From NCBI GenBank assembly GCA_051747385.1, contig JBNJGB010000031.1, positions 9,454 through 73,453 of the forward strand: a stretch of 64,000 nucleotides of DNA, in the 5' to 3' direction. Origin of the DNA: Myxococcota bacterium. Lineage in GTDB: Bacteria; Myxococcota_A; UBA9042; PHBI01; JACKFB01. The notes below the pieces were generated by a model. The model searched no databases. It had not been told where the DNA came from and worked only from the letters and a program-made list of their open reading frames with translations. The position numbers and the translations under genes are program-made. Shown one piece after another: positions 12,763 to 47,996 of the stretch (within the stretch, counting starts at the first letter, position 1; each line of letters starts with the position of its first letter).

Positions 12763-12880
12763 ACCTGTCCTTCGTCCTCCGGCGACGGCACAACGCCCGG
12801 AGCCACACCATATTCCCCCGACGGGTCCGCATGATCGAGGGTCCCGGCCGCCGCGGTCAACCGTCGGCCGTCACTCTCGC

Positions 12881-29650: not shown

Positions 29651-29659
29651 CCGTGGCTC

Positions 29660-31293: not shown

Positions 31294-31460
31294 CCAGGGC
31301 TCTCTCGCCGAGTGCATGGGGCGGCCTCCTTTGCTCACCGGGCACGACCCTTGCAAGGAGCAGGCCACCGAGACGACGCCGGACCCGATGTTCCTGTTTG
31401 AGAACAGGCGGTTCCACGGGTCCGTCCGGCGAGCCACCCATCACGAGCCTGGAGGAAGCC

Positions 31461-31733
31461 GTGGCCATCAGCGGCCTCATCGCGACCCTGGATTCAGACG
31501 CGCGACGCGCGGAGGACGCCGTCGCCGCGCTGTCGGAACACCCCGCCGTCGAGGTGGGCGAGCGGAGCGGCCTGCGCCTGCCCCTCGTCCTCGACACCCC
31601 GTCCTGGCGCGAGGACCGCACGGTCTACCGCTGGATCGAGGCCCTCGACGGCGTGCTCCACGTGGACGTCGCCTGCGTGTGGCTCGACGAGGAGACGGAT
31701 CCCCGCGCCCAGGCCCAGGAGGCCACCCGATGA
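31461..31733 (+). CDS. napD: NapD-like chaperone for periplasmic nitrate reductase
   Basis: GTG start 5 nt after a GGAGGA SD; 90 aa; NapD-like pattern (ISGLIA..., PAVEVGE.., GLRLPLVL, VLHVDVACVW); stop overlaps napA ATG. Confidence 0.6.
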   Translation: MAISGLIATLDSDARRAEDAVAALSEHPAVEVGERSGLRLPLVLDTPSWREDRTVYRWIEALDGVLHVDVACVWLDEETDPRAQAQEATR

Positions 31734-34165
31734 CCGATTGGAAGCCCCTCGACCGACGTGAGTTCCTCCGCCGCTCCGCCATGGCGACGGCGACGGCCGC
31801 CGCGGCCGCGCACCTCCCCGCCGGGATCGCCAGGGCCGGCACGCGCCCGACCGGGTCTCCACCGCCGGACATCGACGGCGTGAGGTGGGACAAGGCGCCG
31901 TGCCGGTTCTGCGGCACCGGCTGCCACGTCCAGGTGGGTACCCGCGGTGGCAAGGTGGTCGCGGTCGCCGGCGACGAGGCCGCCGACGTGAACAAGGGCC
32001 TGCTGTGCGTGAAGGGCTATCACGTGGGCGCCATCCTCTACGGCAAGGACCGCCTGACGAAGCCCCTGCTCCGCAAGGGCGGCAAGCTGCGGCCCGTGTC
32101 CTGGGACGAGGCCCTCGACGTCGTCGCCCGCCGCATCATGGCGAAGCCCGACGAGTTCGCGTTCTACGGGTCGGGCCAGTGGACCATCCCGGAGGGCTAC
32201 GCCGCCCAGAAGTTCACCAAGGGCGGCCTGTCCAACAACCACATCGACCCGAACGCGCGCCTGTGCATGGCCTCGGCGGTCACCGGCTTCATCTCCACCT
32301 ACGGCGTGGACGAGCCGAACGGCTGCTACCAGGACCTGGACGAGTGCGACGTGGTCATCACGTGGGGCAACAACCCCGCCGAGATGCACCCCGTCCTGTT
32401 CAGCCGCATCGTCGACCGTCGCTCCCGCGGCGAGGACGTGAAGCTCATCGACATCGGCACGCGCCGCACGCGGACGACGGAGCACGCCGACCACTACCTG
32501 CGCTTCGACCCGCACGGCGACCTGGCCATCGCCAACGGCATCGCCCACCTGCTGCTGGAAAACGGCACGTGGGACCGCGACTTCGTCGAGAAGAACTGCC
32601 ACTTCCGGCAGGACGAGGCGGAGCCCTCGCTCAAGGGCAAGCCGATGACCTTCGAGGCCTACAAGAAGGCGCTCGAGCCGTACACGCCGGACAAGGTCGA
32701 GGAGCTCTCCGGCGTCCCGGCCGACGACATCCGGATGCTGGGCGATCTCTTCGGCGACCCGGAGGTCAAGATCACCAGCCTCTGGTGCATGGGCATGAAC
32801 CAGCACACCCGGGGCACCGCCATCAACCGGCTGGTCCACGGCGTCCACCTGCTGAGCGGCCACTTCGGGAGGCCGGGCGACAACCCGACCAGCCTCACCG
32901 GGCAGCCCTCGGCCTGCGGCACCGCCCGCGAGGTCGGCACCCTGGCCCACGCCCTGCCGGGCGGCCGGATCGTCAAGAAGAAGGAGCACCGGGAGGACGC
33001 CGAGCGCATCTGGAACCTGCCGGCGGGCCGCGTGAACCCGAAGCCGGGCCATCACACGGTGAAGATGTGGGAGAGGTTCTGCACCCCGACGAGCGAGGGC
33101 GGCGACGTCACGACCCTCTGGGTGCAGGTGACGAACCCGGGGCACACGCTGCCGAACCTCCACAAGCTCTTCCGGGCGAAGGAGGGCCTGGAGGACAAGT
33201 TCCTCATCGTCTCGGACGTCTACCCGACGGCCACCACGGAGCTGGCCGACCTGGTGCTGCCCGCGGCCCTGTGGGTCGAGAAGAACGGCATGTTCGGCAA
33301 CTCCGAGCGGCGGACCCAGCAGTGGTTCCGCCAGGTCATGCCGCCGGGCGACGCCCGCGACGACTGCTGGCAGACCATCGCGGTGGCCCGGCGCCTGTAC
33401 GACCTGGGCTTCCCCGGGATGCGCGACAAGGACGGCCACTTCCTGTTCCGCGTGACCGACGACGACGGCCGCGAGGTCCCGGTCTGGGAGTGGGAGCACT
33501 ACTACGACGTCAACGTCGACGAGGCGCTGTTCGACGAGTACCGGGAGTTCTCGTTCAAGAAGCACAAGCACCTGGCGCCCTACAGCGAGTACGTGAAGGC
33601 GCGCGGCCTGCGCTGGCCGGTGGTCGAGCAGCCGGACGGGAGCTGGCGGGAGACGGGCTTCCGCTTCTCGGGCTTCGACGACCCGTTCGTCTCCGAGGGG
33701 AAGGACATCGAGTTCTACCACTCCACCACGGGCGACGGCCGGGCGCAGATCTGGTTCATGCCCCACGAGTTCCCGCCGGAGATGCCCGACGACGAGTACC
33801 CGTTCTGGCTCTGCACGGGCCGCGTCCTGGAGCACTGGCACACGGGGACCATGACCATCCGGGTGCCCCAGCTGAAGCGCTCCATGCCCACGGCCTACGT
33901 GGAGCTCCACCGGGACGACGCCCTGGAGCTGGGCGTGACCAACGGCGACGTGGTCGTCATCGAGTCCCGCCGCGGGGAGGTGGAGGTCCCGGTCTGGATC
34001 GACGGGCGGGGCAAGCCGCCGCGGCGCTACGCCTTCGTGCCGTTCTTCGACGAGACGAAGCTCGTGAACACCGTCACCCTCGACGCCCACGACCCCATCT
34101 CGAAGCAGCCGGACTACAAGAAGTGCGCGGTCCGGATCCGCAAGAGCACCGGGTCGAAGGCGTAG
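31730..34165 (+). CDS. napA: Periplasmic nitrate reductase catalytic subunit NapA (molybdopterin oxidoreductase)
   Basis: Twin-arginine signal DRREFLRRSAMATATAAAAA; N-terminal 4Fe-4S CRFCGTGC...C; full-length NapA-type molybdopterin domains. Confidence 0.9.
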   Translation: MTDWKPLDRREFLRRSAMATATAAAAAHLPAGIARAGTRPTGSPPPDIDGVRWDKAPCRFCGTGCHVQVGTRGGKVVAVAGDEAADVNKGLLCVKGYHVGAILYGKDRLTKPLLRKGGKLRPVSWDEALDVVARRIMAKPDEFAFYGSGQWTIPEGYAAQKFTKGGLSNNHIDPNARLCMASAVTGFISTYGVDEPNGCYQDLDECDVVITWGNNPAEMHPVLFSRIVDRRSRGEDVKLIDIGTRRTRTTEHADHYLRFDPHGDLAIANGIAHLLLENGTWDRDFVEKNCHFRQDEAEPSLKGKPMTFEAYKKALEPYTPDKVEELSGVPADDIRMLGDLFGDPEVKITSLWCMGMNQHTRGTAINRLVHGVHLLSGHFGRPGDNPTSLTGQPSACGTAREVGTLAHALPGGRIVKKKEHREDAERIWNLPAGRVNPKPGHHTVKMWERFCTPTSEGGDVTTLWVQVTNPGHTLPNLHKLFRAKEGLEDKFLIVSDVYPTATTELADLVLPAALWVEKNGMFGNSERRTQQWFRQVMPPGDARDDCWQTIAVARRLYDLGFPGMRDKDGHFLFRVTDDDGREVPVWEWEHYYDVNVDEALFDEYREFSFKKHKHLAPYSEYVKARGLRWPVVEQPDGSWRETGFRFSGFDDPFVSEGKDIEFYHSTTGDGRAQIWFMPHEFPPEMPDDEYPFWLCTGRVLEHWHTGTMTIRVPQLKRSMPTAYVELHRDDALELGVTNGDVVVIESRRGEVEVPVWIDGRGKPPRRYAFVPFFDETKLVNTVTLDAHDPISKQPDYKKCAVRIRKSTGSKA

Positions 34166-34168
34166 GCG

Positions 34169-34951
34169 ATGGAGGACAAGCCCGTGAAGAGCGACACCTC
34201 CGAGCGTTCGCCGGTCCTGACGGTGGCCCTGGCCGTGATCATCGGCGTGGCCCTGGCCGGCTTCTTCGTCGGCATCCGGCCGCTGCCCGAGTCCGCGCCC
34301 CCGGCCGCCGCCGCATCGGAATCCGACGGCGCCGCCCCGCAGGTGAGCGTCCAGCCCGCGAAGAGCTACACGGAGCTGTGGGAGACCGATCGTGGCCCCA
34401 ACGCCGGCGGCTTCTCCGACCTGGCGACCCTGCGCAAGAACGCGCCGGAGGCGCCCGGGACCGCCCCCGGGATGGAGGCGAAGCTGGCCTCCCTGGAGGC
34501 TCGGTCCGACAACCGCGCCTACGACGGCGCCCCGCCCACGGTCCCCCACGCCATCGACCCGCGGGACGCCTCGTCGTGCCTGACGTGTCACGGCGAGGGC
34601 GTGACCATGGCGGGCCGGACCGCCTCTCCCATCCCGCACCCGCCGTACGCGAACTGCACACAGTGCCACGCCCCGGACGGCGGGCCGCGCTGGGCGGACG
34701 AGCCGACTTCGACGGACAACTCCTTCGTCGGCCTGGCCGCGCCCACCGGCGGCCCCAAGGCACACCCGGCCGCGCCGCCGCAGATCCCGCACCCCACGCG
34801 GATGCGCTCGGACTGCGGAAGCTGTCACGGCCCCTACGGCGCGCCGGGGCTCCGGAGCACCCACTCGGACGACCGCCGGAGCTGCACCCAGTGCCACGCC
34901 CCGTCGGCGCAGGAGGACCGGCGCGACTGGTTCGACCAGGTGGAGATGTAG
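34169..34951 (+). CDS. Membrane-anchored tetraheme cytochrome c built from tandem NapB-like diheme modules
   Basis: N-terminal TM; two repeats each with PP.(V/I)PH...C(L/G)(T/S)CHG and C(T)QCHAP, as in NapB. Confidence 0.65.
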   Translation: MEDKPVKSDTSERSPVLTVALAVIIGVALAGFFVGIRPLPESAPPAAAASESDGAAPQVSVQPAKSYTELWETDRGPNAGGFSDLATLRKNAPEAPGTAPGMEAKLASLEARSDNRAYDGAPPTVPHAIDPRDASSCLTCHGEGVTMAGRTASPIPHPPYANCTQCHAPDGGPRWADEPTSTDNSFVGLAAPTGGPKAHPAAPPQIPHPTRMRSDCGSCHGPYGAPGLRSTHSDDRRSCTQCHAPSAQEDRRDWFDQVEM

Positions 34952-36208: not shown

Positions 36209-37537
36209 CTACGCCGGCCCCTCGCGCAGGAACTGCCGCAGCGTGATCCCGCGGATCCGGTCCGTCTCGAACGGCTCGCTGCCGACGACGACGAGGCGAC
36301 GCGAGGGCAGCGTCTTCGGGAACCACCCGAAGTCGAGGGGCCCGACGCGGCCGCGCTTCACCTCGACCATGGTGTCGTCGCCCACGACGAAGTCGACCTC
36401 GTGCTTGCGGCTGCTCCAGTAGGGGAGGAGCTCGGGGGCCTCGACGCCGGCGATGGCTGCGCGCCGCCACAGCTCCTGGGCCACCAGCCACTCGATCCAG
36501 GAGGCCTGCTGCTCCGGGGGCAGCCCGCGGAACTCGTCTACGGAGCGGAGCCGGGCCGGGTGCCAGCAGACGGCCGCCAGCAAGTTGATGAACGGGTACT
36601 TCGCCGGTCTTCGCGTGGCGCGGACCTGCTTCGACTCATCCCAGGCGTGGGAGAGCCCCAGCACCAGGATGTCGGCCAGCTGCTCGACGTAGCCGGCCGC
36701 CACGGTGTTGTTGGCCAGACCCGCCTCCCGGGCCAGCCGTGCCTGGCCCACCGGGGTCCCGCCTCGCCGCAGCAGGACGTCCATGACCGCCATGAGCGCG
36801 GCGCGAGACCGCCCGGAGCGGGCCATCTCGCCGTGGATCCAGTCCCGCACGATCTCGACGACGAACGGGCTGAGTCGCCCCTCCGTGGCCAGCTCGGCGA
36901 GGGCGACGGGGCTCCCTCCGGACAGGAGGTAGACCCACACTGCGTCATCCGGGCTCACCCGGGGCTCGTGGCCCTGGCAGCAGGCCTCCTCGAAGGCGGA
37001 GAAGGACACCGGCGTGAAGTACCAGCTCGTGCGCTCGAGCCGCCCCTTGCGCCCGGGGAGACGCTCGGCCCCGCGCCTCAGGTCCGTCGCGCGAGAGCCG
37101 GTCGTGATCACCAGCACGCGCTCCAGCGTCCCCGCGTCCACCAAACGCTTGAGGGCCCGCTCCCACTCGTCGACGGCGGTGATCTCGTCGATGAACAGTC
37201 GCCGCACCGCCGCCTCGCGGGCATACAGCGGGACGACCGCCTCCACGGCCTCGCGGAGCGCAGCGGCGTCCGTGATCTCGTCCCCGTTCAAGTAGAAGGC
37301 CGAGCCCGGCCCGAACTCGTCGATGGTGCGCCGGACCTGCGCCTCCAGCCACGTGCTCTTGCCGTACTGCCGGGCGCCCCGGATCAGCAGGATACCGGGC
37401 TCGGTCGGCAGACGCTCCAACCCGAAATCCACGTCGAAGCGCACAGCCCGGCGCTCCACCCGGTCCAGGTGTGGCAGGACCCCCGGCTGGTCGATGGCGC
37501 CGCGGAACAGCGCGTCGTTGATATCACTAACGTCCAC
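36209..37537 (-). CDS. AAA-family ATPase with DUF4143-like C-terminal region
   Basis: Walker A GARQYGKST, Walker B RRLFIDEI; 442 aa; GTG start embedded in a palindromic operator. Confidence 0.75.
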   Translation of the reverse strand: MDVSDINDALFRGAIDQPGVLPHLDRVERRAVRFDVDFGLERLPTEPGILLIRGARQYGKSTWLEAQVRRTIDEFGPGSAFYLNGDEITDAAALREAVEAVVPLYAREAAVRRLFIDEITAVDEWERALKRLVDAGTLERVLVITTGSRATDLRRGAERLPGRKGRLERTSWYFTPVSFSAFEEACCQGHEPRVSPDDAVWVYLLSGGSPVALAELATEGRLSPFVVEIVRDWIHGEMARSGRSRAALMAVMDVLLRRGGTPVGQARLAREAGLANNTVAAGYVEQLADILVLGLSHAWDESKQVRATRRPAKYPFINLLAAVCWHPARLRSVDEFRGLPPEQQASWIEWLVAQELWRRAAIAGVEAPELLPYWSSRKHEVDFVVGDDTMVEVKRGRVGPLDFGWFPKTLPSRRLVVVGSEPFETDRIRGITLRQFLREGPA

Positions 37538-38853: not shown

Positions 38854-38881
38854 AGCACCGCCCGGTGGTAGCAAGGGCGCC

Positions 38882-39198
38882 ATGAGCGCCCAGCCTACCA
38901 CCCTTTACGTCGGGCCCGCCTTCCACACGGGGGAGGCGGGCTCGCCGGATCATGCCGCGGTGGAGGCCGACGCGAGCGGCCGGACGAGCGGCTCGACCTC
39001 GACCGGGCCCTCGCCGCCTTCACGCACGGCGCGGCCCGGGCCGTGCAGCGGGATCACGACCTCGGGCGCCTGCGCCCCGGCCACCGCCTGGACCTCACGG
39101 TCCTCGACCGGGATCCGCGGCGCGATCCCGCAGCGTGGCTGCACACACGCGCCACCGCCACCGCCACCGTCGTCGACGGGGTGGTTCGCCGGGCGTGA
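38882..39198 (+). pseudogene. Amidohydrolase-family gene remnant (N-terminal about 30 aa and C-terminal about 70 aa joined across a frameshift, core deleted)
   Basis: Frame 2 TLYVGPAFHTGEAGSPDHAAVEADASGR resembles an amidohydrolase N-terminus; frame 1 LDRALAAFTHGAARAVQRDHDLGRLRPGHRLDLTVLDRDP...TVVDGVV is a classic amidohydrolase C-terminus. Confidence 0.4.
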
Positions 39199-39411
39199 CC
39201 GGCCTCTCTCGAAGCTCGTCCACCGGGGTCTGGGGCGGGCCGTGGCGGGGTGGCCTGTTCAGGCAGGCTCCCGAGGTGCGACCGGACGCAGGCCTCCGGG
39301 TGGTGCTCGATTGGCCCGAGGCCCCGGGCTCGATGCCTCGGGGGCCGCGGACCCCGGCGATCCGGCGCACCCGCCCTCGGGCGAGAAGCCGAACCGCCGG
39401 ACGTGTGGACG

Positions 39412-39609
39412 CTAGTCCAGCGCCGTGACGTTCTCGGCGCGCGGACCCTTCGGCCCACGACCCTCGTCAAAGGAAACCCTCTGACCCTCGCGCAGATCCT
39501 CGAACTGCCCGTTGACGTTCGACATGTGGAAGAACATGTCGTCCGACCCGCCGCTCGAGATGAAACCGAAGCCGCGGTCGGTCAGTCGCTTGATCGTGCC
39601 TTCTGCCAT
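39412..39609 (-). CDS. Cold-shock protein (CspA family)
   Basis: 65 aa, KRLTDRGFGFI (RNP1) and VFFHMS-like RNP2 motifs. Confidence 0.9.
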   Translation of the reverse strand: MAEGTIKRLTDRGFGFISSGGSDDMFFHMSNVNGQFEDLREGQRVSFDEGRGPKGPRAENVTALD

Positions 39610-39744
39610 GATGACTCAACTTGTCTTGGATGATGCTCTGCCGAAGGGCAACGGGCCCAACGGCAGAGCGACAGTGAACCACTTCGACGCGAAAAGCCAG
39701 CGCCGGGTCATTTGCCCGAGAAATCTTCCACTCACCGGCGAGGT

Positions 39745-40668
39745 CTAGACCCCGCTCTCCAGCGGTTCGCGCGCCTCCAGCCAGGTCGCCGGGACGCCCT
39801 CCCGGCCGGTGAAGGCCGCCACGATGCCGCCCACGATGGCGCACGTGGTGTCGCGATCGCCCCCGGCGGACACGGTGGTCCACATGGCGGCCTCGAAGTC
39901 CTCCAGGTGGCGAGCCGCGGACCAGAGGCAGAAGCCGACGGTGTCCTGGGCCGTGATGCGGCTGCCGTTGCCCAGGTTCGCGACCGCCGTCGTGACGGTC
40001 TCCTCCGGGTCGAGGCCGCGGGCGGTCTCCACGTGATCGCGGACCTCGCTGTCGGGCGTGACGGCGAGCGCCGCGTCGAACAGGGCCCTCGGCTCCGTCT
40101 CGCCGTCCGCGCCCTGGCGCGCGGCCTCGCCCGCGGCCGCCGAGACCGCGATCGCGCCGGCGCGGCCCTCCGGGTGGGCGTGGGTGACCCGCGCGGAGAC
40201 GTCGGCCTCCTGGGCGAGCCGCTCCGGGTCGTCGGCGAAGTACGCCCCCAGCGGGGCCACGCGCATGGCGCCGCCGTTGCCGAACGAGCCCGAGCCGCGG
40301 AACAGCGCCGGGGCCTCCACGCGCCAGTCCGCGCCGCCCCCGAAGGCCGGAAGGAGCCGGTGCGCTCCGGGCCCGTAGCCGCGCCCCGGCCGCCGCGCGT
40401 AGCGGTGGGCGAAGCGCCTCGCGAGCGCGTCCGGGTCCACGCGCCCGTGGGCCTCCAGGACGTCCACGATCGCCAGGGCCATCTCGGTGTCGTCCGTGTA
40501 GCGCCACGGCGATCGGGGGAGCGCCCGTCGGGCCACCAGCTCGGCGAGGCGGTCCGAGTGCGCGAAGAAGCGCTCTCCGAACGCGTCCCCGACGGAGAGC
40601 CCCTCGAGGGACGTGCGCGCCCGCTCCAGGCGCGCCTCGGCGTCTGTCGACATGCTGTTGCGAGCCAT
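39745..40668 (-). CDS. ADP-ribosylglycohydrolase family protein (DraG-like)
   Basis: GDAFGE, WRYTDDTEMALAIV, GNGGAMRVAPLGAYF, GGDRDTTCAIVGG motifs; start at 40668 (alternative 40653). Confidence 0.8.
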   Translation of the reverse strand: MARNSMSTDAEARLERARTSLEGLSVGDAFGERFFAHSDRLAELVARRALPRSPWRYTDDTEMALAIVDVLEAHGRVDPDALARRFAHRYARRPGRGYGPGAHRLLPAFGGGADWRVEAPALFRGSGSFGNGGAMRVAPLGAYFADDPERLAQEADVSARVTHAHPEGRAGAIAVSAAAGEAARQGADGETEPRALFDAALAVTPDSEVRDHVETARGLDPEETVTTAVANLGNGSRITAQDTVGFCLWSAARHLEDFEAAMWTTVSAGGDRDTTCAIVGGIVAAFTGREGVPATWLEAREPLESGV

Positions 40669-40862
40669 GTCGTCCAGCCTATCATTCCGGGCCGGGAGCG
40701 GGCGACGCGGTGAAACCGCCTGCCCTGCCCGATTCTTGGTCGACCGGGTGTCTGTGATAGCTTGCCGCCCGTGATCCCGGGGGAGGGAGCAGGCCACCCA
40801 CGGCCGGACGATGCGGCAGCAGGACCGCCGTCTCCGCCGGCGGAACCAGGAGGACAGCCCGA

Positions 40863-43187
40863 GTGAGCAGCCGCCGCCGCGCCCTGTTCGTCAACCCGCC
40901 GCTGTTCGTGGGGACGGACTTCATCGACTACCCGTACTTCGCGGACTACGGCCTCCTCGTGTCGGCGGCCTGGACCGCGCGCGCCGGGTGGGCGGTGGAC
41001 GTGGTGGACGCCTTCGCGCGGCCCGGCTCGGGCAAGCACCCCCACGGCGACCACTTCCTCCTGGGCGTCCCCAACGACGCCATGCTGGAGGCGATGCCCG
41101 AGGAACCGGTCGACGTGGTGGCCGTCGCGAGCACGCCGTTCCTCAAACCCCAGGACCCGCGGCCGGAGACCCGCGAGCTGATCGCGGCCCTCCGCGAGCG
41201 CTATCCCGACGCCGCTCTCATCCTGGCGGACTGCCACTTCGGCGGCATGCACACGGTCGAGGTGGACCTCGAGGACGTCCTGGCGGCCATGCCGGACCTC
41301 GACGCGCACCTCCGCTACGCCGGGGACGCCTGGTTCTCGGAGCCGGAGCGCCTCCTGGACCTGAAGGGCACGAAGCAGGCCGTGGACGCCGCCGCGCACC
41401 CCTGGCGGAGCTCCCACAGCCCGCCATTTCCGCTCCTCGACGCGCTGGACCGGGAGCACCACCGGCGCTTCCTGGCGTCCTGCTTCGCGGACGGCTCCTG
41501 GTCGAACCCCTTCGACGTCACGCCGGACACCCTGCCCTTCATGACCAGCGGCGGCTGCGTGCACCGCTGCATCTTCTGCACCTCCAACCCGGGCTGGCAG
41601 ACCGTGGGCCGCAAGCCGTACCGCGCCGTGCCCCTGGAGTGCATCGAGCAGTGGGCCTATCTCCTCGTGAAGGGCCTGGGCGCGCGGAAGCTGATGATCC
41701 TCGACGAGATCGCCAACCTGCGCCCCGACTTCGAGGAGGTCCTGGAGGTCTTGGAGAAGCTGGACCTCCGCTACGACTTCCCCAACGGCGTGCGGGCGGA
41801 CTACCTCGCCGACAGCGCCATCGAGCGGATGAAGGGCCGGGTGAACAGGCTGTCCGTGTCGGTCGAGAGCGGGGACGCGGCGGAGCTCTCGGGCCCCATC
41901 GCCAAGCGCCTGGACCCGAACGAGGTGGAGCGCGTCGCGCGGACGGCGCACCGGGTCGGCGTGCCGCTCATGGTCCACTACATCATCGGCTTCCCGTGGG
42001 AGACGCCGCGGCAGGTGCTCGACACGCTGGAGTTCGCCTGGCGGCTCCACGAGCAGTACGGCGCCGAGCCGGCGGTCCAGTACGCGACGCCGCTGCGGGG
42101 CACGCCGCTCCACGAGATGTGCCTGGAGCAGGGCCTCACCACGAAGCAGGGCGCGGACTCCACGGACCCGGCGCTGTTCCAGCACGAGCCCTCCTACGTC
42201 CCGCCGAACATCCCGCCCGGCTGGCTCGAGACGGCCAAGGGCGCGCTGGAGGCCAAGCTGAAGGCGGCGCGCGAGCGCAAGGTGATCATGAACATCACCT
42301 ACTCGTGCGACAACAACTGCGAGTTCTGCGCCACGGGCGACCGCGTGCGGAAGATCATCCCCTGGCCGCGGGTCGAGCGCATCCTGCGCGAGCACTGGGA
42401 CCAGGGCATCGGCCAGCTGGACATCGACGGCGGCGAGCCGACGCTGCACCCGAACCTCGTGGACGCCATCCGGCTGGCGACGGACCTGGGCTATCACCGC
42501 ATCAACATCACCAGCAACGGCCGGCGCCTCGCGGACCCCGAGCGCGCCCGGGAGCTGGTGCAGAGCGGCCTGACGAGCCTGCTCATCTCCATGCACGGCC
42601 ACACGCCGGAGCTGCACGACCGCATCGTGCGGAAGCGCGGCGCCTTCGATCAGACCGTCGCCGGCATCCGGAACGCCCTGGCGTACATGTCCGAGGACGT
42701 GGACTTCGGCGTGAACATCACCATCGTGCGGAACAACGTGGACCACCTGGAGGAGTTCACGCAGCTCGCCTGGGACCTGGGCGCGCGGAAGGTGAACTAC
42801 CAGATGCTCACGCCGTTCGGGAACGCCGAGACCCGCTACACGGACGAGGACATCGTCCCGCCCGAGCGCGAGGTGGCCGCCCGCCTCTGCGAGGTCATCG
42901 AGCGCTGGAGCGACCGGCTGCGCATCTTCGTCGTCAACGCGCAGCCCTGCCTCTTCCCGGGCTACGAGCGCTACGTCCTGCCGGACCTCCAGAAGCTGGG
43001 GCGCACGATGGTCTTCGTGTGGGACGAGGAGGTGAACCTCTTCGAGTACCTCGGCGCGCGCCGCGAGCGCGTGGAGATCTGCGAGTCCTGCCCCCACAGC
43101 ATCAACTGCCAGGGCTTCTTCGACTTCGAGTCGGACTACGAGCCGCCCCGCGAGGTCCGCGACTTCCTGGGAGGTGCCCGTGCCTGA
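40863..43187 (+). CDS. Bifunctional radical-SAM protein: cobalamin-binding class-B radical SAM domain fused to a SPASM-type radical SAM domain
   Basis: GTG start 8 nt after AGGAGGA; N-terminal B12-binding-like region (ALFVNPPLFVG...GLLVSAAW...VDVVD); CVHRCIFC (Cx3Cx2C); second core NITYSCDNNCEFCATGD...IDGGEPTLHPN...ITSNGRRL and C-terminal CESCPHSINC auxiliary-cluster cysteines. Confidence 0.8.
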   Translation: MSSRRRALFVNPPLFVGTDFIDYPYFADYGLLVSAAWTARAGWAVDVVDAFARPGSGKHPHGDHFLLGVPNDAMLEAMPEEPVDVVAVASTPFLKPQDPRPETRELIAALRERYPDAALILADCHFGGMHTVEVDLEDVLAAMPDLDAHLRYAGDAWFSEPERLLDLKGTKQAVDAAAHPWRSSHSPPFPLLDALDREHHRRFLASCFADGSWSNPFDVTPDTLPFMTSGGCVHRCIFCTSNPGWQTVGRKPYRAVPLECIEQWAYLLVKGLGARKLMILDEIANLRPDFEEVLEVLEKLDLRYDFPNGVRADYLADSAIERMKGRVNRLSVSVESGDAAELSGPIAKRLDPNEVERVARTAHRVGVPLMVHYIIGFPWETPRQVLDTLEFAWRLHEQYGAEPAVQYATPLRGTPLHEMCLEQGLTTKQGADSTDPALFQHEPSYVPPNIPPGWLETAKGALEAKLKAARERKVIMNITYSCDNNCEFCATGDRVRKIIPWPRVERILREHWDQGIGQLDIDGGEPTLHPNLVDAIRLATDLGYHRINITSNGRRLADPERARELVQSGLTSLLISMHGHTPELHDRIVRKRGAFDQTVAGIRNALAYMSEDVDFGVNITIVRNNVDHLEEFTQLAWDLGARKVNYQMLTPFGNAETRYTDEDIVPPEREVAARLCEVIERWSDRLRIFVVNAQPCLFPGYERYVLPDLQKLGRTMVFVWDEEVNLFEYLGARRERVEICESCPHSINCQGFFDFESDYEPPREVRDFLGGARA

Positions 43188-44106
43188 ACGCCCCGGGACC
43201 ATGATCGACCTGATCATGGGCTACGAGTGCAACGTGCGGTGCGACTACTGCTCCATCTTCGACGAGCTTCGCCCGAAGAACATGAGCACCGCCCAGATCC
43301 TGGCGGAGCTTCAGCGTGCCTGGGCCCAGGGCATCCACCGCGCGGCCTTCGGCGGCGGCGAGCCGACCATCCGGAAGGACTTCCTGCCGCTCGTCCGATG
43401 GTGCCGGGATCGGGGCTTCGACCACGTGAAGGTGGCCTCGAACGGGATGATGTACTCCTACGAGGACTACGCCCGAAAGGCCGTCGACGCCGGAGTCACG
43501 CAGTTCAACATCTCCGCCATGGGCCACACGGAGGCCCTGTACAACCGCATCATGGCCACGCCGAAGGCCCTCGGCCTGGTGCGGAAGGGCGTGGACAACC
43601 TCATCGCCCTGGGCCAGGAGCCCGCCCTGGACCTCATCGTCAAGGCGGACACCTGGCGCCGGATCCCCGACACCGTCGCCTGGTGGGCCGACCAGGGCGT
43701 GAAGACGTTCAGCCTCTGGCTCGTGTCCCTGACCGACCGGAACGCGCAGTTCCCCGAGTCCATGCCCCGGGTGAGCGAGATGCGCGAGGGCTTCACGGGC
43801 GCCTTCGACATCGCCCGCGAGCGGGGCCTGAAGGTCACCACGCGCCACGTCCCCCGCTGCATGCTCCGCGGCTACGAGGACCACGTCGAGGACGTCAGCA
43901 CCCAGGACGTCCTCATCGTCACGCCGGGCGAGCGCTTCCACATCACCGACTCGGTCATCAGCCCGAACGCCCTGACCGACAAGTGCGAGGGCTGCCGCTT
44001 CGCCGGCGACCCCTGCATCGGGATGCGCCGGGATTACCTGGAGCGCTACGGCGACGACGAGATCGAGCCCTATTTCGACGACACGGCCGGCGCCGCCACG
44101 GCATGA
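43174..44106 (+). CDS. Radical SAM protein with C-terminal twitch/SPASM-like cysteines
   Basis: GYECNVRCDYCS (Cx3Cx2C), FGGGEPTI, ASNG; C-terminal CEGCRFAGDPC; start at GTG 43174 or ATG 43201; overlaps the upstream stop. Confidence 0.8.
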   Translation: MPVPERPGTMIDLIMGYECNVRCDYCSIFDELRPKNMSTAQILAELQRAWAQGIHRAAFGGGEPTIRKDFLPLVRWCRDRGFDHVKVASNGMMYSYEDYARKAVDAGVTQFNISAMGHTEALYNRIMATPKALGLVRKGVDNLIALGQEPALDLIVKADTWRRIPDTVAWWADQGVKTFSLWLVSLTDRNAQFPESMPRVSEMREGFTGAFDIARERGLKVTTRHVPRCMLRGYEDHVEDVSTQDVLIVTPGERFHITDSVISPNALTDKCEGCRFAGDPCIGMRRDYLERYGDDEIEPYFDDTAGAATA

Positions 44107-46064
44107 GGGCGCTCGTCGACGTCGGCCACGGGTGCAACAACCGGTGCACCTTCTGCAGCGTGGCCCCCACCCGCGAGTCGGAGGCCTCCACGGAGGCCCT
44201 GGCCCGGAAGATCGACCGCGCGGCCGCTCTGGGCCACACCATGGTGGTCCTCACCGGCGGCGAGCCGACCATCCGCCGCGACCTCCCGCGCCTGGCGAAG
44301 CGCGTCGCGGCCCGCGGCATGGATCTGGGCCTCGTCACCAACGCCCGGATGCTGGCCTATCCGAAGCTGGCCGATCTCCTCGCGGACCGCCGCCTCACCT
44401 GGGTCCACGCCTCCGTCCACGGCGGCACGCCCGAGGTCCACGACGCCATCGTCGGCGACGCGGCCTTCGAGCAGACCCTCGCGGGCGTCCGCACCTGCCT
44501 CGCCCGCGGCGTCGCCGTCCACCTCCACTGCGTCGTGACGCGCGCCAACCTCCACCACCTCCGCGGCGTGGTCGACCTGCTGTCGGACCTCCCCGGCGGC
44601 ACCCTGGCTTTCGCCCCGGTGGAGCCGGTGGGCGACGCCGCCCGCGACGACTCGCAGGTCCCCTCCCCCGAGGAGGCCGCCCGAGCCATCGCCGACGCCA
44701 TCCGCCACGGCGACTCGCGAGAGCACCGATCGGGCGTGCGGACCGCGGGTCTCCGAGGGATTTCCGAGTGGATCGGCCAGGCGCGCAGCGCCGGTGCTGC
44801 GTCCCGAGCCATGCCATCAGGCATGGCGCAGCGGTCGCGGCAGGCCGAGGCGCCGGAAATCGCCGGTAGCCCAACGGGAGCACGGTCGTTCGGTGCTCCA
44901 GGCCTCTCCGGCCGCGTGGCGCACCAGGACGTGCCCCTGTGCCTGCTGCCGGGCCTGGAGGACCGCTGGACCGACCCCCGCGCCCGGGGGTTCACGCGCC
45001 GCAGCCGCGTCGCGGACGACGACCTCCTCCCCCTCGACCGGGGCGGCCGGGTGCAGCCCGAGCCATGCACCGACTGCGCCCTGCGCGGCCGCTGCCCGGG
45101 CCTCCACGAGGCCACGCTGGAGACCTTCGGCGCGGGCATGCTGACGCCGAAGCTGGCGCACCGCTCCAACTCCTACAACTTCGTCCCCGGCGGCTCGGCC
45201 ACCTGGGAGGCCGGGGCGCCCTGCCCGCTCCTGGACCGCGGCCCGCACGTGCTCGACCGCACGCGCGACGTGTTCCTCCGACAGGGCGAGACGATGACGC
45301 GCTACGAGACGGCCACCCGCGACTTCGCCGAGGCCGAGCTTCGCGCCACCAAGCACGTCCACGGCCAGGTCTACGTGGACATCACGGACAAGACGGCCCC
45401 GGACGACTTCGCCGCGGACCTGCGCAAGCTGGTGCGCGTCCCGGAGTGCGCGCCCTGCCCGGCCCGCGACGCCTGCCCCAACTGCTACGAGGCCCTGGAC
45501 GAGGACGTCTTCACCCGCGACGACGCCCTCCTCCGGGACCTCATCGCCGGCCTGGAGGGCGACGTCCTCGACGTCGGCTGCGGCGACGGCCGCTACGGCG
45601 ACGTCCTGGGCCCCCTGGTCGAGTCGGGCCGCATCCGCTACCGCGGCCTCGACCCGCACGCCCCGACCGTCGAATCCCTCCGGGAGCGCTGGCCCTGGGC
45701 CACCCTCGAGGTCGGCCGCGCCGAGGACCTGGACCTGCCGCCCGAGTCCCTCGACCACGCCTTGGTGCTCCGCTCCTGGAACCACCTGGAGCGCCCCCGC
45801 GACGTCCTCACGGTCCTCACGAAGGCCCTCCGCCCCGGCGGCACCCTCCTCGTCGCCGACAACGTCGCCTTCGGCCTGCTCCGCAGCCCCACCCAGGCCA
45901 GCCGCGCCGAGACGGGCCCCTCCGAGTTGGAGCACTTCCGCAACCACAGCGCCACCCAGGCCCGAGCCCTCCTCGAAGCCCTCCCCCTGACCGTCGAGGC
46001 CTTCCACGAGGTCGGCCCCCGCACCAGCAACCAGTGGGTGCTTCACGCGCGGCGGACGGGTTGA
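44103..46064 (+). CDS. Radical SAM (SPASM-type) domain fused to a class I SAM-dependent methyltransferase domain
   Basis: ATGA overlap with the upstream gene; GHGCNNRCTFCS, LTGGEPTI, VTNARM; CTDCALRGRCPG and CAPCPARDACPNC cysteine clusters; C-terminal VLDVGCGDGRYG (MTase motif I) and LLVADN (motif II-like). Confidence 0.8.
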   Translation: MRALVDVGHGCNNRCTFCSVAPTRESEASTEALARKIDRAAALGHTMVVLTGGEPTIRRDLPRLAKRVAARGMDLGLVTNARMLAYPKLADLLADRRLTWVHASVHGGTPEVHDAIVGDAAFEQTLAGVRTCLARGVAVHLHCVVTRANLHHLRGVVDLLSDLPGGTLAFAPVEPVGDAARDDSQVPSPEEAARAIADAIRHGDSREHRSGVRTAGLRGISEWIGQARSAGAASRAMPSGMAQRSRQAEAPEIAGSPTGARSFGAPGLSGRVAHQDVPLCLLPGLEDRWTDPRARGFTRRSRVADDDLLPLDRGGRVQPEPCTDCALRGRCPGLHEATLETFGAGMLTPKLAHRSNSYNFVPGGSATWEAGAPCPLLDRGPHVLDRTRDVFLRQGETMTRYETATRDFAEAELRATKHVHGQVYVDITDKTAPDDFAADLRKLVRVPECAPCPARDACPNCYEALDEDVFTRDDALLRDLIAGLEGDVLDVGCGDGRYGDVLGPLVESGRIRYRGLDPHAPTVESLRERWPWATLEVGRAEDLDLPPESLDHALVLRSWNHLERPRDVLTVLTKALRPGGTLLVADNVAFGLLRSPTQASRAETGPSELEHFRNHSATQARALLEALPLTVEAFHEVGPRTSNQWVLHARRTG

Positions 46065-46087
46065 GACCGCCTAGGTAGAGGTCGGGA

Positions 46088-46381
46088 TCACGCGACACGG
46101 GTGAGGTCGTCCTCGATCCGGGTCCGCAGGCGCGGCTTCACCATCCTGTCGGTGGCGAGGTCCACGGGGCGCTGGAGAAGCTCCTCGAGCCGATCCTCGA
46201 GGGCGAAGTAGCCGCGGAGAGTGGGCCTCGCGCGGAAGGTCACCACGACGTCGACGTCGCTGTCGGGCCGAAGGTCACCGCGCGCGGCGGAGCCGAACAC
46301 GGCCAGCGAGGCCACGTCGAACTCCTCTCGGAGCTCATCGGCGTGGCTTCGCAGCGTGGCCAGGACGTCCGGTTTGCTCAT
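46088..46381 (-). CDS. Nucleotidyltransferase-domain protein (MNT-type, antitoxin-like)
   Basis: LAVFGSAARGDLRPDSDVDVVV (GS...D.D motif). Confidence 0.7.
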   Translation of the reverse strand: MSKPDVLATLRSHADELREEFDVASLAVFGSAARGDLRPDSDVDVVVTFRARPTLRGYFALEDRLEELLQRPVDLATDRMVKPRLRTRIEDDLTRVA

Positions 46382-46661
46382 GGCGGGACCCGTCCGGTTT
46401 CGGAGCATCGGCTTGCGCCGTCACGGAGAGGATAGCGCGGGGTCGGCCGACGCGCGAACCGTGGAGCAGAACACGCTCTTGCGGAAGCGCCACGTAGCGG
46501 AACACCACGATGAGTCCGCGGAAGCGTCTCCGGATCGGGGCTTCCGGGGCTCGAAGCCCCTGGCCCAGGTTGATCCCGCCCAGCCGGCGACACTCCCGCG
46601 TCATGTAGCGGATGTCCGACTGGACGAGCCCCTCGAGCCGACTCGAACGGAACGTCGACAT
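46335..46661 (-). CDS. Hypothetical protein upstream of and overlapping the MNT gene; possible degenerate HEPN-like partner
   Basis: Position and size fit a TA partner, but no clean Rx4-6H HEPN motif is seen. Confidence 0.25.
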   Translation of the reverse strand: MSTFRSSRLEGLVQSDIRYMTRECRRLGGINLGQGLRAPEAPIRRRFRGLIVVFRYVALPQERVLLHGSRVGRPRAILSVTAQADAPKPDGSRHEQTGRPGHAAKPRR

Positions 46662-46733
46662 GGCGGCCTCCTCCCACCGCCACTGTAGGAGAGGTCGCGC
46701 CGTCACCCGACCCGGGTCGGGAGTCGCGCTCGC

Positions 46734-47996
46734 CTATGGAGGACCCGGGCTTCCGAGGCGCCTCCGGACCTCGGCGAGGCCCGGGATCGGCTCGTCGGCC
46801 CCGTCGCCCGCCAGGAACGACAGGTGGTCCACGGGCAGGACCGCACGGTCGTCCACGCCGTCGAGACGCTGGCTCTCCAGGGTGACCGCGCCGTCGCCCC
46901 GAGGGCCGGAGACGGCCCGGGCCGCCTCCACGAGTCCCTCGAGCCAGGTCGCGGCCGTCCGCGCCATGGCGTCCTCCGAGCGCGCGAGGCGCGCGAGGGT
47001 GGCGTCCGCCACGGCGAAGACCTCGGGGCCCACCACGTCGCCGTCGCCCGCCAGGATGCTGTAGCGGACGCCCTCCCGACGCTCCGCGGCGCGGAGGTCC
47101 CGCATGAGGGGGGAGTCGGGCTGGAGGTCGCGCGCCGCCTGGCCCAGGCCGTCGAAGACGAACAGCCCGCCGAGGCCCTCGCCCAGCAGGTCGCTGAGCG
47201 TCTCGGGGATCTCCCGCACGGCGTGGTAGCGGGCCAGCGGCGCGCCCCCGAAGGGCGGGCAGCACGCGATGAAGCGGGCCACCTCGCCGCCGTAGTCGGG
47301 GTCCGTCTCCAGGTAGGTCCTCGCGACGACGCCGCCCATGGAGACGGTCACGAGGTCGATGCGCCGGCCGGTGTCCCGGTGCAGACCGCGCAGGAGGCGC
47401 CCGAGGGCCCGGGCCGTCCGCCGGATGCGCCCGTCGTCGGGATAGCGGAACAGGTAGACGTCCCGACCGTCGTGCGCCAGGGCGGCCGCCGCGCCGTGGA
47501 GGCTCTCCGGGCCCGAGTCCAGGCCGTGGACGAACACCACGGGAGGTCCGCCCTGAGCGGAGCCCTGGACGCGGTCCAGGGCGAACACGGGCGGGCGGCG
47601 GCCGAGCACGCGGCGCAGGACGCCCTCCAGCTCGTCGATGCGGGCGTCCAGCTGGCGGCGGTCGATCGCCACGATCAGCGTGTCGTCGCGGAGAGCGAGG
47701 TCCACGCCGATTCGGTCCAGCGCCATGTCCAGGCCCAGGACCGCCGCTCGCCCGATCGCGTCGGCCACCGGGATGCGCGTGTCCGGGAGCGACCCCGGCA
47801 GCGCGATCGGACCGCCGACCTCGGCCAGCAGCACCGACACCACGTCGGCGATCGCGACTCCCCCGTCCCGGACCTCCAGGCGGTGCACCGCCCGGTCGCC
47901 CGAGGGAGGCTCCGCCGGCTGGGCCGCGGCCCCGGCGACCAGGGCCGCGAGGGCGACCAGCGTGGCGGCGGCGCGGCGGATGGGACCGGGGCGCAT
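46734..47996 (-). CDS. Secreted alpha/beta hydrolase (lipase/esterase-like)
   Basis: Signal peptide; nucleophile elbow TVSMGG; HGLDSG oxyanion region. Confidence 0.65.
   Translation of the reverse strand: MRPGPIRRAAATLVALAALVAGAAAQPAEPPSGDRAVHRLEVRDGGVAIADVVSVLLAEVGGPIALPGSLPDTRIPVADAIGRAAVLGLDMALDRIGVDLALRDDTLIVAIDRRQLDARIDELEGVLRRVLGRRPPVFALDRVQGSAQGGPPVVFVHGLDSGPESLHGAAAALAHDGRDVYLFRYPDDGRIRRTARALGRLLRGLHRDTGRRIDLVTVSMGGVVARTYLETDPDYGGEVARFIACCPPFGGAPLARYHAVREIPETLSDLLGEGLGGLFVFDGLGQAARDLQPDSPLMRDLRAAERREGVRYSILAGDGDVVGPEVFAVADATLARLARSEDAMARTAATWLEGLVEAARAVSGPRGDGAVTLESQRLDGVDDRAVLPVDHLSFLAGDGADEPIPGLAEVRRRLGSPGPP

What the first reader, a model, noticed from the sequence alone, without database searches (positions are those of the whole stretch)
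40863..46064. Compact translationally coupled module with four radical-SAM domains (one cobalamin-type) plus a methyltransferase and no visible substrate gene
Three co-directional genes with overlapping stop/start codons (stop TGA 43185-43187 of gene 1 overlapped by gene 2, whose start is GTG 43174 or ATG 43201; ATGA at 44103) encode (1) a B12-binding class-B radical SAM fused to a second, SPASM-type radical SAM domain, (2) a further SPASM/twitch radical SAM, and (3) a radical SAM fused to a class I SAM methyltransferase. All four Cx3Cx2C motifs are intact, as are the GGEPT and S/TNG motifs. The three SPASM-type cores are clear paralogs. Class-B radical-SAM C-methyltransferases plus radical-SAM epimerase/crosslinking enzymes plus an N-/O-methyltransferase is the enzymatic palette of heavily tailored RiPPs such as proteusins, yet there is no precursor-peptide ORF, leader-peptidase, transporter or NHLP/Nif11 leader within the module or the 195-bp upstream gap. 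The neighbourhood is rich in membrane-lipid enzymes (plsC-like, DAGK, WS/DGAT-like, thiolase/FabG4/MaoC, DprE1/2-like). The substrate could therefore be a lipid or polyprenyl species (compare B12-rSAM lipid methylases HpnP/HpnR and archaeal tetraether rSAMs) or a peptide encoded elsewhere. I do not recognise this four-rSAM plus MTase arrangement as a described system.
Basis: partly seen in the sequence, partly recalled or inferred. Interest (0 to 1): 0.8.

Follow-up and report, generated by a model that had tools for sequence, protein, structure and literature searches.

The report
Orphan His-Xaa-Ser-type radical-SAM tailoring trio
Three tightly coupled genes carrying four radical-SAM domains and a methyltransferase are real and intact, and their closest relatives sit in large gene clusters that modify a peptide made of (His-Gly-Ser) repeats, but no such peptide gene lies in this 64-kb window.

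Summary
The anatomy is confirmed. There are three co-directional genes with overlapping or near-abutting stop and start codons, four intact CX3CX2C radical-SAM cores and a class I methyltransferase. No precursor gene is present anywhere in the 64 kb.

Two domain labels are over-called:
- The "B12" domain has the right fold, but Pfam scores it only 13 bits, and its best structural match is AprD4, which to my recollection binds no cobalamin.
- No SPASM domain is detected. The three paralogous cores are HxsC-like, each with one 4-Cys C-terminal motif.

Comparative genomics points to the system. Gene 1 belongs to a ~770-aa family found in 232 species-representative genomes. In 38 of 84 loci it lies within 10 kb of His-Xaa-Ser (HXS) markers: HxsB, HxsD, or an HxsA4 precursor with a conserved leader and (HGS)13 to >100 repeats.

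The window's gene 1 nests inside a clade whose members carry HxsA4 about 5 kb upstream whenever the upstream sequence is available. Orthologues of all three window genes lie in one such cluster, which also holds a true HxsC4.

The window has none of these partners. I read the trio as a peptide-tailoring cassette of the uncharacterised "type 4" HXS system, with its substrate encoded elsewhere. The rival is an exapted cassette with a different substrate. The lipid idea is not supported.

It is a new variant of a known kind, of moderate interest.

The parts
40658..40685 (+). Sigma-70-like promoter match (TTGCGA-16-TATCAT) in the divergent gap upstream of g1
   Evidence: the only site in 39300-46800, against 0.1 expected from shuffles. 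This is a consensus match only, not evidence of function.
40863..41522 (+). g1 residues 1-220: Rossmann-like N-terminal domain of the kind fused to class-B-type radical-SAM enzymes. Cobalamin binding is unproven.
   Evidence: AlphaFold model with pLDDT 89. Foldseek best matches are AprD4 (6fd2), MgmA (9ccb), TokK and TsrM. Pfam B12-binding scores only 13 bits, E 0.092. Invariant residues D19, D22-Y23-P24, G128 and H130 across 40 homologues.
41523..42242 (+). g1 residues 221-460: first radical-SAM core (CVHRCIFC at C232), of the AprD4/HpnJ/MgmA type
   Evidence: HpnJ 50 bits at residues 225-435; 6fd2, E 6.6e-16 at 223-433. C232, C236 and C239 are invariant.
42243..43187 (+). g1 residues 461-774: second radical-SAM core, HxsC-like (CDNNCEFC at C482, GGEP 523), with a C-terminal four-Cys motif C696...C740-X2-C743-X5-C749
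   Evidence: HxsC4 119 bits, HxsC 82 bits, both below cutoff; BlsE, PqqE, SkfB, GDGT-MAS, MoaA. All seven Cys are invariant in 40 homologues.
43174..44106 (+). g2: single HxsC-like radical-SAM protein (CNVRCDYC, GGEP, C220...C262-X2-C265-X6-C272, numbered from ATG 43201). The start is GTG 43174, GTG 43180 or ATG 43201, so it overlaps or lies 13 nt from the g1 stop.
   Evidence: An orthologue at 52-65% identity sits directly downstream of g1 in 40 of 84 loci, including nearly every locus at >=45% identity that extends far enough downstream. The g1/g2 overlap is conserved in L003, L005, L007 and L209.
44103..45137 (+). g3 residues 1-345: third HxsC-like radical-SAM core (CNNRCTFC, GGEP, C280...C322-X2-C325-X5-C331). 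It includes a disordered low-complexity insert, at about 44664-44918, that the closest orthologue lacks.
   Evidence: same frame; GC3 dips to 0.80; pLDDT <50 at residues 229-264; BlsE, GDGT-MAS, SkfB, MoaA.
45138..45542 (+). g3 residues 346-480: conserved Cys-rich middle domain that always travels with the methyltransferase
   Evidence: Invariant C374, C449, C452 and C458 in 40 homologues. The domain occurs fused to the methyltransferase as a separate ~310-aa gene in 12 loci. No Pfam family matches it.
45543..46064 (+). g3 residues 481-653: class I SAM-dependent methyltransferase
   Evidence: Methyltransf_11/25/12; generic small-molecule-type methyltransferases. It is 55-60% identical to methyltransferases encoded next to HxsD-HxsDrel-HxsB-HxsA in metagenome loci L102 and L163.

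Best explanation
The trio is a self-contained operon of tailoring enzymes from the expanded "type 4" His-Xaa-Ser (HXS) peptide-maturation system. The usual substrate of that system is HxsA4, a ribosomal precursor. HxsA4 has a conserved ~55-residue leader followed by 13 to more than 100 His-Gly-Ser repeats ending in Trp.

Shown:
- The genes are intact and translationally coupled.
- Their orthologues lie in HxsA4/HxsC4 clusters.
- The window lacks HxsA4, HxsB, HxsC4 and HxsD.

Inferred:
- The three HxsC-like cores each carry one radical-SAM cluster plus one four-Cys auxiliary site. I propose that they abstract hydrogen atoms from the repeated H-G-S units and install cross-links or oxidative changes.
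- The class-B-like half of g1 adds or rearranges a carbon. This would be a methylation if it binds cobalamin, or an AprD4-like rearrangement if it does not.
- The Cys4-methyltransferase half of g3 N- or O-methylates.
- In this genome the cassette acts in trans on an HxsA4-like protein encoded outside the 64-kb window. That gene may be missing from the assembly, because HGS repeats break contigs.
For: - Family size. g1 has at least 357 database homologues and relatives in 232 species-representative genomes.
- Neighbourhood. Among 84 non-redundant loci (the window included), 38 have HxsB, HxsD or an (HGS)n ORF within 10 kb. The figure is 20 of 34 where at least 8 kb is available on both sides.
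- The partners are bona fide family members by NCBIfam cutoffs. HxsB scores 506 bits (cutoff 370), HxsD 55 (50) and the HxsD-like protein 60 (41). HxsA4 scores 120 and 105 (55). HxsC4 scores 534 and 584 (500).
- Clade membership. The window's g1 nests in the clade L004/L005/L009/L209 (57-66% identity; neighbour-joining tree).
- Precursor in that clade. L004 and L009 have HxsA4 4.8-6 kb upstream on the same strand. The L209 contig starts inside the HGS repeat. L005 is truncated.
- Joint orthology. L004 holds orthologues of all three window genes (G1 64%, G2 61%, rSAM-methyltransferase 56-60%) together with HxsA4 and HxsC4.
- g3 family. Six of the eight other loci with the fused rSAM-methyltransferase carry HXS markers.
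- Methyltransferase. In the precursor-centred metagenome scan it sits in HxsA-HxsB-HxsDrel-HxsD operons at 55-60% identity to the window's domain.
- Integrity. All catalytic Cys are intact and invariant.
Against: - No (HxS)n ORF exists in any frame of the 64 kb, not even two consecutive HxS units.
- tblastn finds no HxsB, HxsD, HxsC4 or aKG-HExxH hydroxylase homologue in the window.
- Eleven other genomes carry a stand-alone G1-G2-methyltransferase set with no HXS marker within reach, in at least three different synteny contexts. The cassette may therefore not need HxsA4.
- None of the three proteins reaches any curated HXS cutoff.
- The HxsC-like cores resemble nucleotide- or sugar-acting enzymes (BlsE, MoaA, viperin) about as well as peptide maturases (PqqE, SkfB, SuiB).
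- The chemistry is entirely inferred. Even for canonical HxsC only a +8 Da change is known (PMC13128918).
Confidence: 0.55

Rival explanations
1. Exapted stand-alone cassette. The G1-G2-(rSAM-)methyltransferase set has left the HXS system and works on a different substrate. That could be another protein, or a small molecule such as a nucleotide or sugar. No nearby precursor is then expected.
For: - Eleven loci (L003, L007, L010, L011, L018, L028, L040-L043, L048) have G1-G2-methyltransferase without HxsA4, HxsB or HxsD within reach. They sit in several unrelated contexts, such as FtsK synteny or aroK/aroC synteny.
- The window adds yet another context.
- The cores' best solved relatives include BlsE, MoaA and viperin.
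- Related clusters also hold UbiA, a DegT-type aminotransferase and a Tes/TrsS-like radical-SAM enzyme.
Against: - The window's g1 nests in the HxsA4-linked clade, not with the stand-alone loci.
- g3's fused form is mostly HXS-linked: 6 of 8 loci.
- Precursors often lie 6-12 kb from G1 and break assemblies, so absence within 10 kb is weak evidence.
Confidence: 0.25
2. Lipid or polyprenyl tailoring. The radical-SAM domains methylate or cross-link membrane lipids, as HpnP/HpnR or archaeal Tes/GDGT-MAS do.
For: - MaoC, FabG-like, thiolase and DAGK genes lie 2-8 kb away.
- A UbiA prenyltransferase sits directly upstream of G1 in L005, L009 and L209.
- GDGT-MAS appears among the structural matches.
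Against: - Tes scores 46 bits against a cutoff of 450, and HpnJ 50 against 578.
- GDGT-MAS matches only the generic radical-SAM core (TM-score normalised to target length, 0.36).
- The window's lipid genes do not recur next to any homologue in the 84-locus set.
- In L009 the UbiA gene lies in the same co-directional array as HxsA4.
Confidence: 0.07
3. Decaying remnant. The trio is what is left of a larger HxsA4 cluster and no longer has a function.
For: - Relatives in the same clade have 9-12 genes where the window keeps 3.
- g3 carries a roughly 85-residue disordered low-complexity insert with a lower GC3.
Against: - The reading frames are open.
- All Fe-S ligands, GGEP motifs and the methyltransferase GxGxG motif are intact.
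- GC3 is 0.92-0.98 outside the insert.
- Stop/start overlaps are conserved.
- A similar reduced set is kept in at least 11 other species.
Confidence: 0.08

Closest known systems
Canonical HXS anti-phage system, HxsA-HxsB-HxsC-HxsD (Li et al., Nat Commun 2026, PMC13128918; families TIGR03976-03979, first defined by Haft & Basu as cited in PMC9062424)
   Same: - HxsC-like radical-SAM cores are the best curated matches of three of the four domains.
- Relatives of the module are encoded beside true HxsB and HxsD and a His-Xaa-Ser repeat precursor.
   Different: - The window has no HxsA, HxsB or HxsD.
- HxsC scores reach only 44-82 bits against a cutoff of 268.
- The canonical effector has five HxS repeats plus a peptidoglycan-binding domain, and 99.7% of canonical systems are in Pseudomonadota. 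The linked precursor here has 13 to more than 100 HGS repeats and occurs in Myxococcota and Binatia.
- The canonical system has no class-B-like domain and no methyltransferase.
NCBIfam "type 4" HXS families: HxsA4 (NF038313) and HxsC4 (NF038332). Catalogued; I found no publication on them.
   Same: - Orthologues of g1, g2 and g3 share a cluster with a true HxsA4 and a true HxsC4 in L004.
- HxsC4 is the top NCBIfam hit of g1 and g2.
   Different: - g1, g2 and g3 score 119, 75 and 78 bits against a cutoff of 500, so they are paralogues and not HxsC4.
- Neither HxsA4 nor HxsC4 is in the window.
- No curated model exists for the G1, G2 or rSAM-methyltransferase families.
Radical-SAM enzymes with a B12-like N-terminal domain: AprD4 (6fd2; cobalamin-free to my recollection), MgmA (9ccb), TokK, TsrM, CysS
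   Same: The N-terminal half of g1 has the same two-domain fold. Foldseek E values are 1e-15 to 1e-10, and TM-score normalised to target length is 0.64-0.66 for AprD4 and MgmA.
   Different: - Sequence identity is 14-18%.
- Pfam B12-binding is sub-threshold at 13 bits. A neighbouring class-B enzyme in a related cluster scores 45 bits.
- This half is fused to a second, unrelated radical-SAM core. Cobalamin use is unknown.
Proteusin-type RiPP pathways such as polytheonamide (recalled from memory as an analogy)
   Same: Several radical-SAM enzymes plus a methyltransferase act iteratively on one long ribosomal peptide.
   Different: There is no NHLP/Nif11 leader. No curated epimerase or class-B C-methyltransferase family reaches its NCBIfam cutoff. 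The precursor family linked to these enzymes is HxsA4.

Membership tests
Canonical HXS system (HxsABCD) | HxsC radical-SAM maturase, TIGR03977 at or above 267.9 bits | tested here: not met
   g1 82.4, g2 44.3 and g3 77.4 bits.
Canonical HXS system (HxsABCD) | HxsB radical-SAM/SPASM maturase (TIGR03978) in the locus | tested here: not met
   No tblastn hit outside the trio in 64 kb. Relatives have it: L001 scores 506.5 bits against a cutoff of 370, and it is present in 29 of 84 loci.
Canonical HXS system (HxsABCD) | HxsD small partner protein (TIGR03976) | tested here: not met
   No hit in the window. It is present in 27 of 84 related loci. tblastn at 1e-3 could miss a very divergent copy.
Canonical HXS system (HxsABCD) | His-Xaa-Ser repeat effector or precursor (HxsA) | tested here: not met
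   The six-frame scan finds no (HxS)x2 or longer run anywhere in the window.
Type 4 HXS system (NCBIfam HxsA4/HxsC4) | HxsA4 precursor, NF038313 at or above 55 bits | tested here: not met
   Absent from the window. Present in 18 of 84 related loci and in the window's own clade.
Type 4 HXS system (NCBIfam HxsA4/HxsC4) | HxsC4, NF038332 at or above 500 bits | tested here: not met
   g1 119, g2 75.5 and g3 78 bits. True HxsC4 is a separate ~340-aa gene in L004 (534 bits) and L049 (584 bits). The window has no orthologue.
Type 4 HXS system (NCBIfam HxsA4/HxsC4) | Orthologues of the genes are encoded inside clusters that hold HxsA4 and HxsC4 | tested here: met
   L004 holds G1 at 64%, G2 at 61% and rSAM-methyltransferase at 56-60% identity, together with HxsA4 and HxsC4. 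The tree places the window's g1 inside this clade.
Class B (cobalamin-dependent) radical SAM | N-terminal cobalamin-binding Rossmann domain (PF02310) | tested here: inconclusive
   13 bits, E 0.092, cutoff 32.1. The fold matches both AprD4, which I recall as cobalamin-free, and the cobalamin enzymes MgmA, TokK and TsrM.
Class B (cobalamin-dependent) radical SAM | Bound cobalamin and methyl transfer | not testable with these tools
   This needs cofactor analysis of purified g1.
SPASM/twitch radical SAM | SPASM domain (PF13186) with the seven-Cys pattern for two auxiliary clusters | tested here: not met
   No hit even at E <= 10. Only C...CX2CX5-6C, four Cys, is present in each of the three cores.
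Tetraether lipid synthase Tes / GDGT-MAS | NF045702 at or above 450 bits | tested here: not met
   g1 46.1 and g2 45.9 bits. The structural match is limited to the shared radical-SAM core.
Proteusin RiPP pathway | Precursor with an NHLP or Nif11-type leader near the enzymes | tested here: not met
   There is no small precursor-like ORF in or beside the module. The only small gene nearby is a cold-shock protein at 39412-39609.

The most novel reading that the evidence does not exclude
The G1-G2-(rSAM-)methyltransferase cassette recurs without any HXS partner in at least a dozen Myxococcota genomes. It may be an autonomous pathway in which HxsC-like radical-SAM domains have been exapted to a non-HxsA substrate: a small molecule, a lipid-linked intermediate or a housekeeping protein. 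Four radical-SAM active sites plus a methyltransferase in three polypeptides would then make a product of a kind not yet described.
Probability: 0.25. Interest if true: 0.75.

Novelty: new variant of a known kind. Interest (0 to 1): 0.5.

Why it matters
**Scale and status of the families.** The three protein families are large. g1 has relatives in 232 species-representative genomes, and g3 has at least 510 homologues. They are conserved, and no curated model covers them.

**Link to an unstudied system.** They tie into a His-Xaa-Ser system whose precursor is an extreme repeat, (HGS)n with n up to more than 100. In relatives that precursor is served by ten or more radical-SAM domains. I found no study of this system.

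**Open chemistry.** Only the four-gene gammaproteobacterial form has been studied, and even there the chemistry is known only as a +8 Da change. A compact three-gene cassette is a tractable way to ask what HxsC-like enzymes actually do to His/Gly/Ser repeats.

**A practical warning.** HGS repeats break assemblies. "No substrate gene" near such enzymes in metagenome-assembled genomes is therefore weak evidence.

Tried and rejected
- **Reaching the rest of the 81-kb source contig.** Exact-sequence look-ups of g1 and of P0001 found nothing on record. The 17 kb outside the window could not be read.
- **A precursor between the G2-like gene and HxsD in relatives.** Small ORFs exist there, but they are not conserved.
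- **A precursor or repeat peptide in the window.** There is no (HxS)n run, no relevant tandem repeat and no Rfam hit. The 860-bp gene-poor stretch at 38.9-39.7 kb holds only a cold-shock gene.
- **Conserved partners in the stand-alone loci.** Only lineage synteny was found: FtsK, aroK/aroC, a type II secretion ATPase.
- **Defence-system libraries.** PADLOC gives only weak viperin-like hits to the radical-SAM cores. It also gives a PDC-S09 hit to the neighbouring MNT nucleotidyltransferase.
- **Substrate clues from structure.** Both AlphaFold models are confident, but the matches are generic radical-SAM cores and generic class I methyltransferases.
- **Literature.** Searches for HxsA/B/C/D, HGS or HxS repeats and histidine-rich RiPPs returned only the canonical HXS paper and a passing mention.
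- **Lipid reading.** Rejected on the scores and on non-conserved neighbours.

Full report
**1. What is in the sequence**

The window has 72% G+C. Its proteins match a Myxococcota MAG at 100% identity. Three + strand genes fill 40863-46064.

- g1 is 40863-43187 and encodes 774 aa.
- g2 runs to 44106. Possible in-frame starts are GTG 43174, GTG 43180 and ATG 43201. They overlap the g1 stop (TGA 43185-43187) or lie 13 nt after it.
- g3 is 44103-46064 and encodes 653 aa. It is joined to g2 by an ATGA overlap.

Third-position GC marks these as the coding frames, and no frameshift is seen. g3 has an insert of about 85 residues of low-complexity sequence (44664-44918) that its closest orthologue lacks. 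The insert is in frame and is predicted to be disordered.

The trio is bounded by opposite-strand genes: an ADP-ribosylglycohydrolase upstream and an MNT-type nucleotidyltransferase downstream. A single sigma-70-like site lies in the upstream gap. It therefore looks like a self-contained operon.

**2. Domains**

Pfam finds two radical-SAM stretches in g1 and one each in g2 and g3. It also finds a class I methyltransferase at g3 residues 486-626.

All four CX3CX2C motifs are present. The second core of g1, g2 and the g3 core are paralogues at 28-32% identity (E 1e-14 to 1e-22). Each carries GGEP and a C-terminal C...CX2CX5-6C motif. These Cys are invariant in 40 homologues of g1 and of g3. Between its core and its methyltransferase, g3 has a conserved domain with four invariant Cys and no Pfam match.

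- SPASM is not detected, even at E <= 10. Four Cys are enough for one auxiliary cluster, not the two of a SPASM domain.
- The "B12-binding" domain scores 13 bits against a Pfam cutoff of 32.

A confident AlphaFold model (pLDDT 89) shows that residues 1-460 of g1 have the two-domain fold of enzymes with a B12-like domain. The best match is AprD4, which to my recollection binds no cobalamin. The cobalamin enzymes MgmA, TokK, TsrM and CysS follow. The fold class is right, but the cofactor remains open.

**3. No curated family fits**

Against NCBIfam every hit is far below its cutoff. The best are HxsC4 (119, 75 and 78 bits against 500) and HxsC (82, 44 and 77 against 268). Tes reaches 46 against 450 and HpnJ 50 against 578. 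PADLOC gives only weak viperin-like matches.

**4. Relatives and their neighbours**

The g1 architecture of about 770 aa has at least 357 homologues. It has relatives in 232 species-representative genomes. Most are Myxococcota and Binatia, with some Thermodesulfobacteriota and Terriglobales. The cultured Plesiocystis pacifica SIR-1 is among them.

I called genes in 84 non-redundant loci (the window plus 83 fetched loci) and clustered them.

- A g2 orthologue follows g1 directly in 40 of the 84 loci, including nearly every locus at >=45% identity to the window's g1 that extends far enough downstream. The stop/start overlap is often the same.
- Recurrent partners are a 619-aa radical-SAM protein (40 loci), HxsB (29), HxsD (27), an HxsD-like protein (20) and an aKG-HExxH peptide hydroxylase (20).
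- The Cys4-methyltransferase occurs as a separate ~310-aa gene in 12 loci. It is fused to a radical-SAM core, as in g3, in 9 loci.

The HXS partners pass their curated cutoffs: HxsB 506 against 370, HxsD 55 against 50, HxsD-like 60 against 41.

**5. The substrate in relatives**

Eighteen loci carry, within about 12 kb of g1, an ORF with two parts. The first is a conserved leader (..KKNGLPSLRKKPLDFLSP.EARQAVKP...LLAQHMSHAS). The second is a run of His-Gly-Ser units ending in HGSW, with between 13 and more than 60 repeats within the locus.

NCBIfam calls this ORF HxsA4 (120 and 105 bits against 55). The repeats use mixed synonymous codons, so the protein sequence is what is conserved. The true HxsC4 is a separate ~340-aa gene in these clusters (534 and 584 bits against 500).

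I then scanned metagenomes for the repeat DNA. This gave 80 His-X-Ser repeat loci (X = Gly, Ala or Ser), mostly next to HxsB and HxsD. Methyltransferases 55-60% identical to the window's lie in HxsA-HxsB-HxsDrel-HxsD-methyltransferase operons (L102, L163). One full-length g1 homologue sits tail-to-tail with a precursor (L171).

**6. Where the window fits**

A neighbour-joining tree puts the window's g1 inside the clade L004/L005/L009/L209.

- L004 and L009 have HxsA4 4.8-6 kb upstream on the same strand.
- The L209 contig begins inside the HGS repeat.
- L005 is cut short.
- L004 contains orthologues of all three window genes, plus HxsA4 and HxsC4.

The window has none of HxsA4, HxsB, HxsC4, HxsD or the other cluster genes in 64 kb. 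It holds a reduced cassette that descends from HxsA4-linked clusters.

**7. Interpretation**

I put 0.55 on this reading: a tailoring cassette of the type 4 HXS system that acts on an HxsA4-like repeat peptide encoded elsewhere. That gene may have been lost from the MAG, because the repeats break contigs.

The mechanism is inferred. The HxsC-like cores would carry out radical hydrogen abstraction and cross-linking on H-G-S units. The class-B-like half of g1 would methylate or rearrange a carbon. The g3 methyltransferase would N- or O-methylate.

The main rival (0.25) is that the cassette has been exapted. Eleven other species keep G1-G2-methyltransferase with no HXS marker nearby, in several different genomic contexts. 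The cores also look as much like BlsE, MoaA and viperin as like PqqE and SkfB.

The lipid reading (0.07) rests on neighbours that are not conserved and on generic core similarity. UbiA, a DegT-type aminotransferase and a Tes/TrsS-like enzyme in some related clusters keep it from being zero. A decaying remnant (0.08) is unlikely given the intact motifs and the conserved coupling.

**8. Comparison with what is known**

The canonical HxsABCD system was shown in 2026 to be an anti-phage system. In it, HxsB and HxsC mature a periplasmic effector with five HxS repeats, adding a +8 Da change, and 99.7% of such systems are in Pseudomonadota. NCBIfam lists HxsA4 and HxsC4, but I found no paper on them.

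The window's trio fails every membership test for the canonical system and for HxsC4 itself. It meets only the test of orthology to genes inside type 4 clusters. I therefore file it as a new variant of a known kind: uncharacterised accessory families of an uncharacterised branch of HXS systems, here in an orphan arrangement.

**9. Verdict**

The "peptide encoded elsewhere" reading gains specific support and a named candidate substrate. The lipid reading does not. Interest is moderate (0.5). The window alone is an orphan enzyme set, but it points to a large and chemically unexplored repeat-peptide system and gives a compact way to test it.

Noticed in passing
L209:1-75; also the edges of L049, L051, L078, L171 and L199: Contigs or loci begin or end inside the (HGS)n repeat; L209 reads ...GSHGSHGSHGSW* from base 1. 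These repeats seem to break short-read assemblies, so HxsA4 genes are probably under-represented in MAGs.
   Followed up: partly
L004:5724-6032, L009:4493-4801, L001:3781-3996(-), L049:375-851, L077:16095-17255(-): HxsA4 precursors vary widely in repeat number, from 13 to more than 100 HGS units, and some loci carry two copies. The repeats use mixed synonymous Ser and His codons, which points to selection on the peptide and not to recent slippage.
   Followed up: partly
L209:4346-5200, 10316-11614(-), 11611-12930(-); L005:3370-4230 and 7722-9221: Clusters closest to the window's also encode several extra enzymes. These are a UbiA-family prenyltransferase directly upstream of G1, a DegT/PseC-like aminotransferase, and a radical-SAM enzyme with a Zn_ribbon_HMPTM domain (TrsS 142 and Tes 131 bits, both below cutoff). 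There is also a clear B12-binding class-B radical-SAM enzyme. This suggests prenyl or amino-sugar decoration.
   Followed up: partly
window 44664-44918: g3 has an insert of about 85 residues of Ala/Arg/Gly/Ser-rich sequence that the L004 orthologue lacks. It is in frame, GC3 drops to about 0.80, and it is predicted to be disordered.
   Followed up: yes
window 46088-46408 (-): An MNT-type nucleotidyltransferase (PADLOC PDC-S09 family) is convergent with g3, 24 bp from its stop. No HEPN partner gene is apparent beside it.
   Followed up: no
window 39412-39609 (-) and 38880-39400: A 65-aa cold-shock protein gene lies in an otherwise gene-poor stretch. About 500 bp at 38.9-39.4 kb shows no clear coding periodicity.
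   Followed up: partly
window 28340-34951: A respiratory-type gene set: an NrfD-like membrane subunit (-), a molybdopterin oxidoreductase (31781-34165) and a multihaem cytochrome c (34169-34951). It appears unrelated to the module.
   Followed up: no
window 36209-37537 (-): An AAA_14/DUF4143 ATPase lies 3 kb upstream of the module. With the MNT gene and the ADP-ribosylglycohydrolase it gives a faint defence-island flavour, which I did not test.
   Followed up: no
L001:19707-20987 and 19 other loci: An aKG-HExxH-type peptide beta-hydroxylase (TIGR04267, 81 bits against a cutoff of 40) is a regular last gene of the Binatia-type clusters. This is further evidence for a peptide substrate there.
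   Followed up: partly
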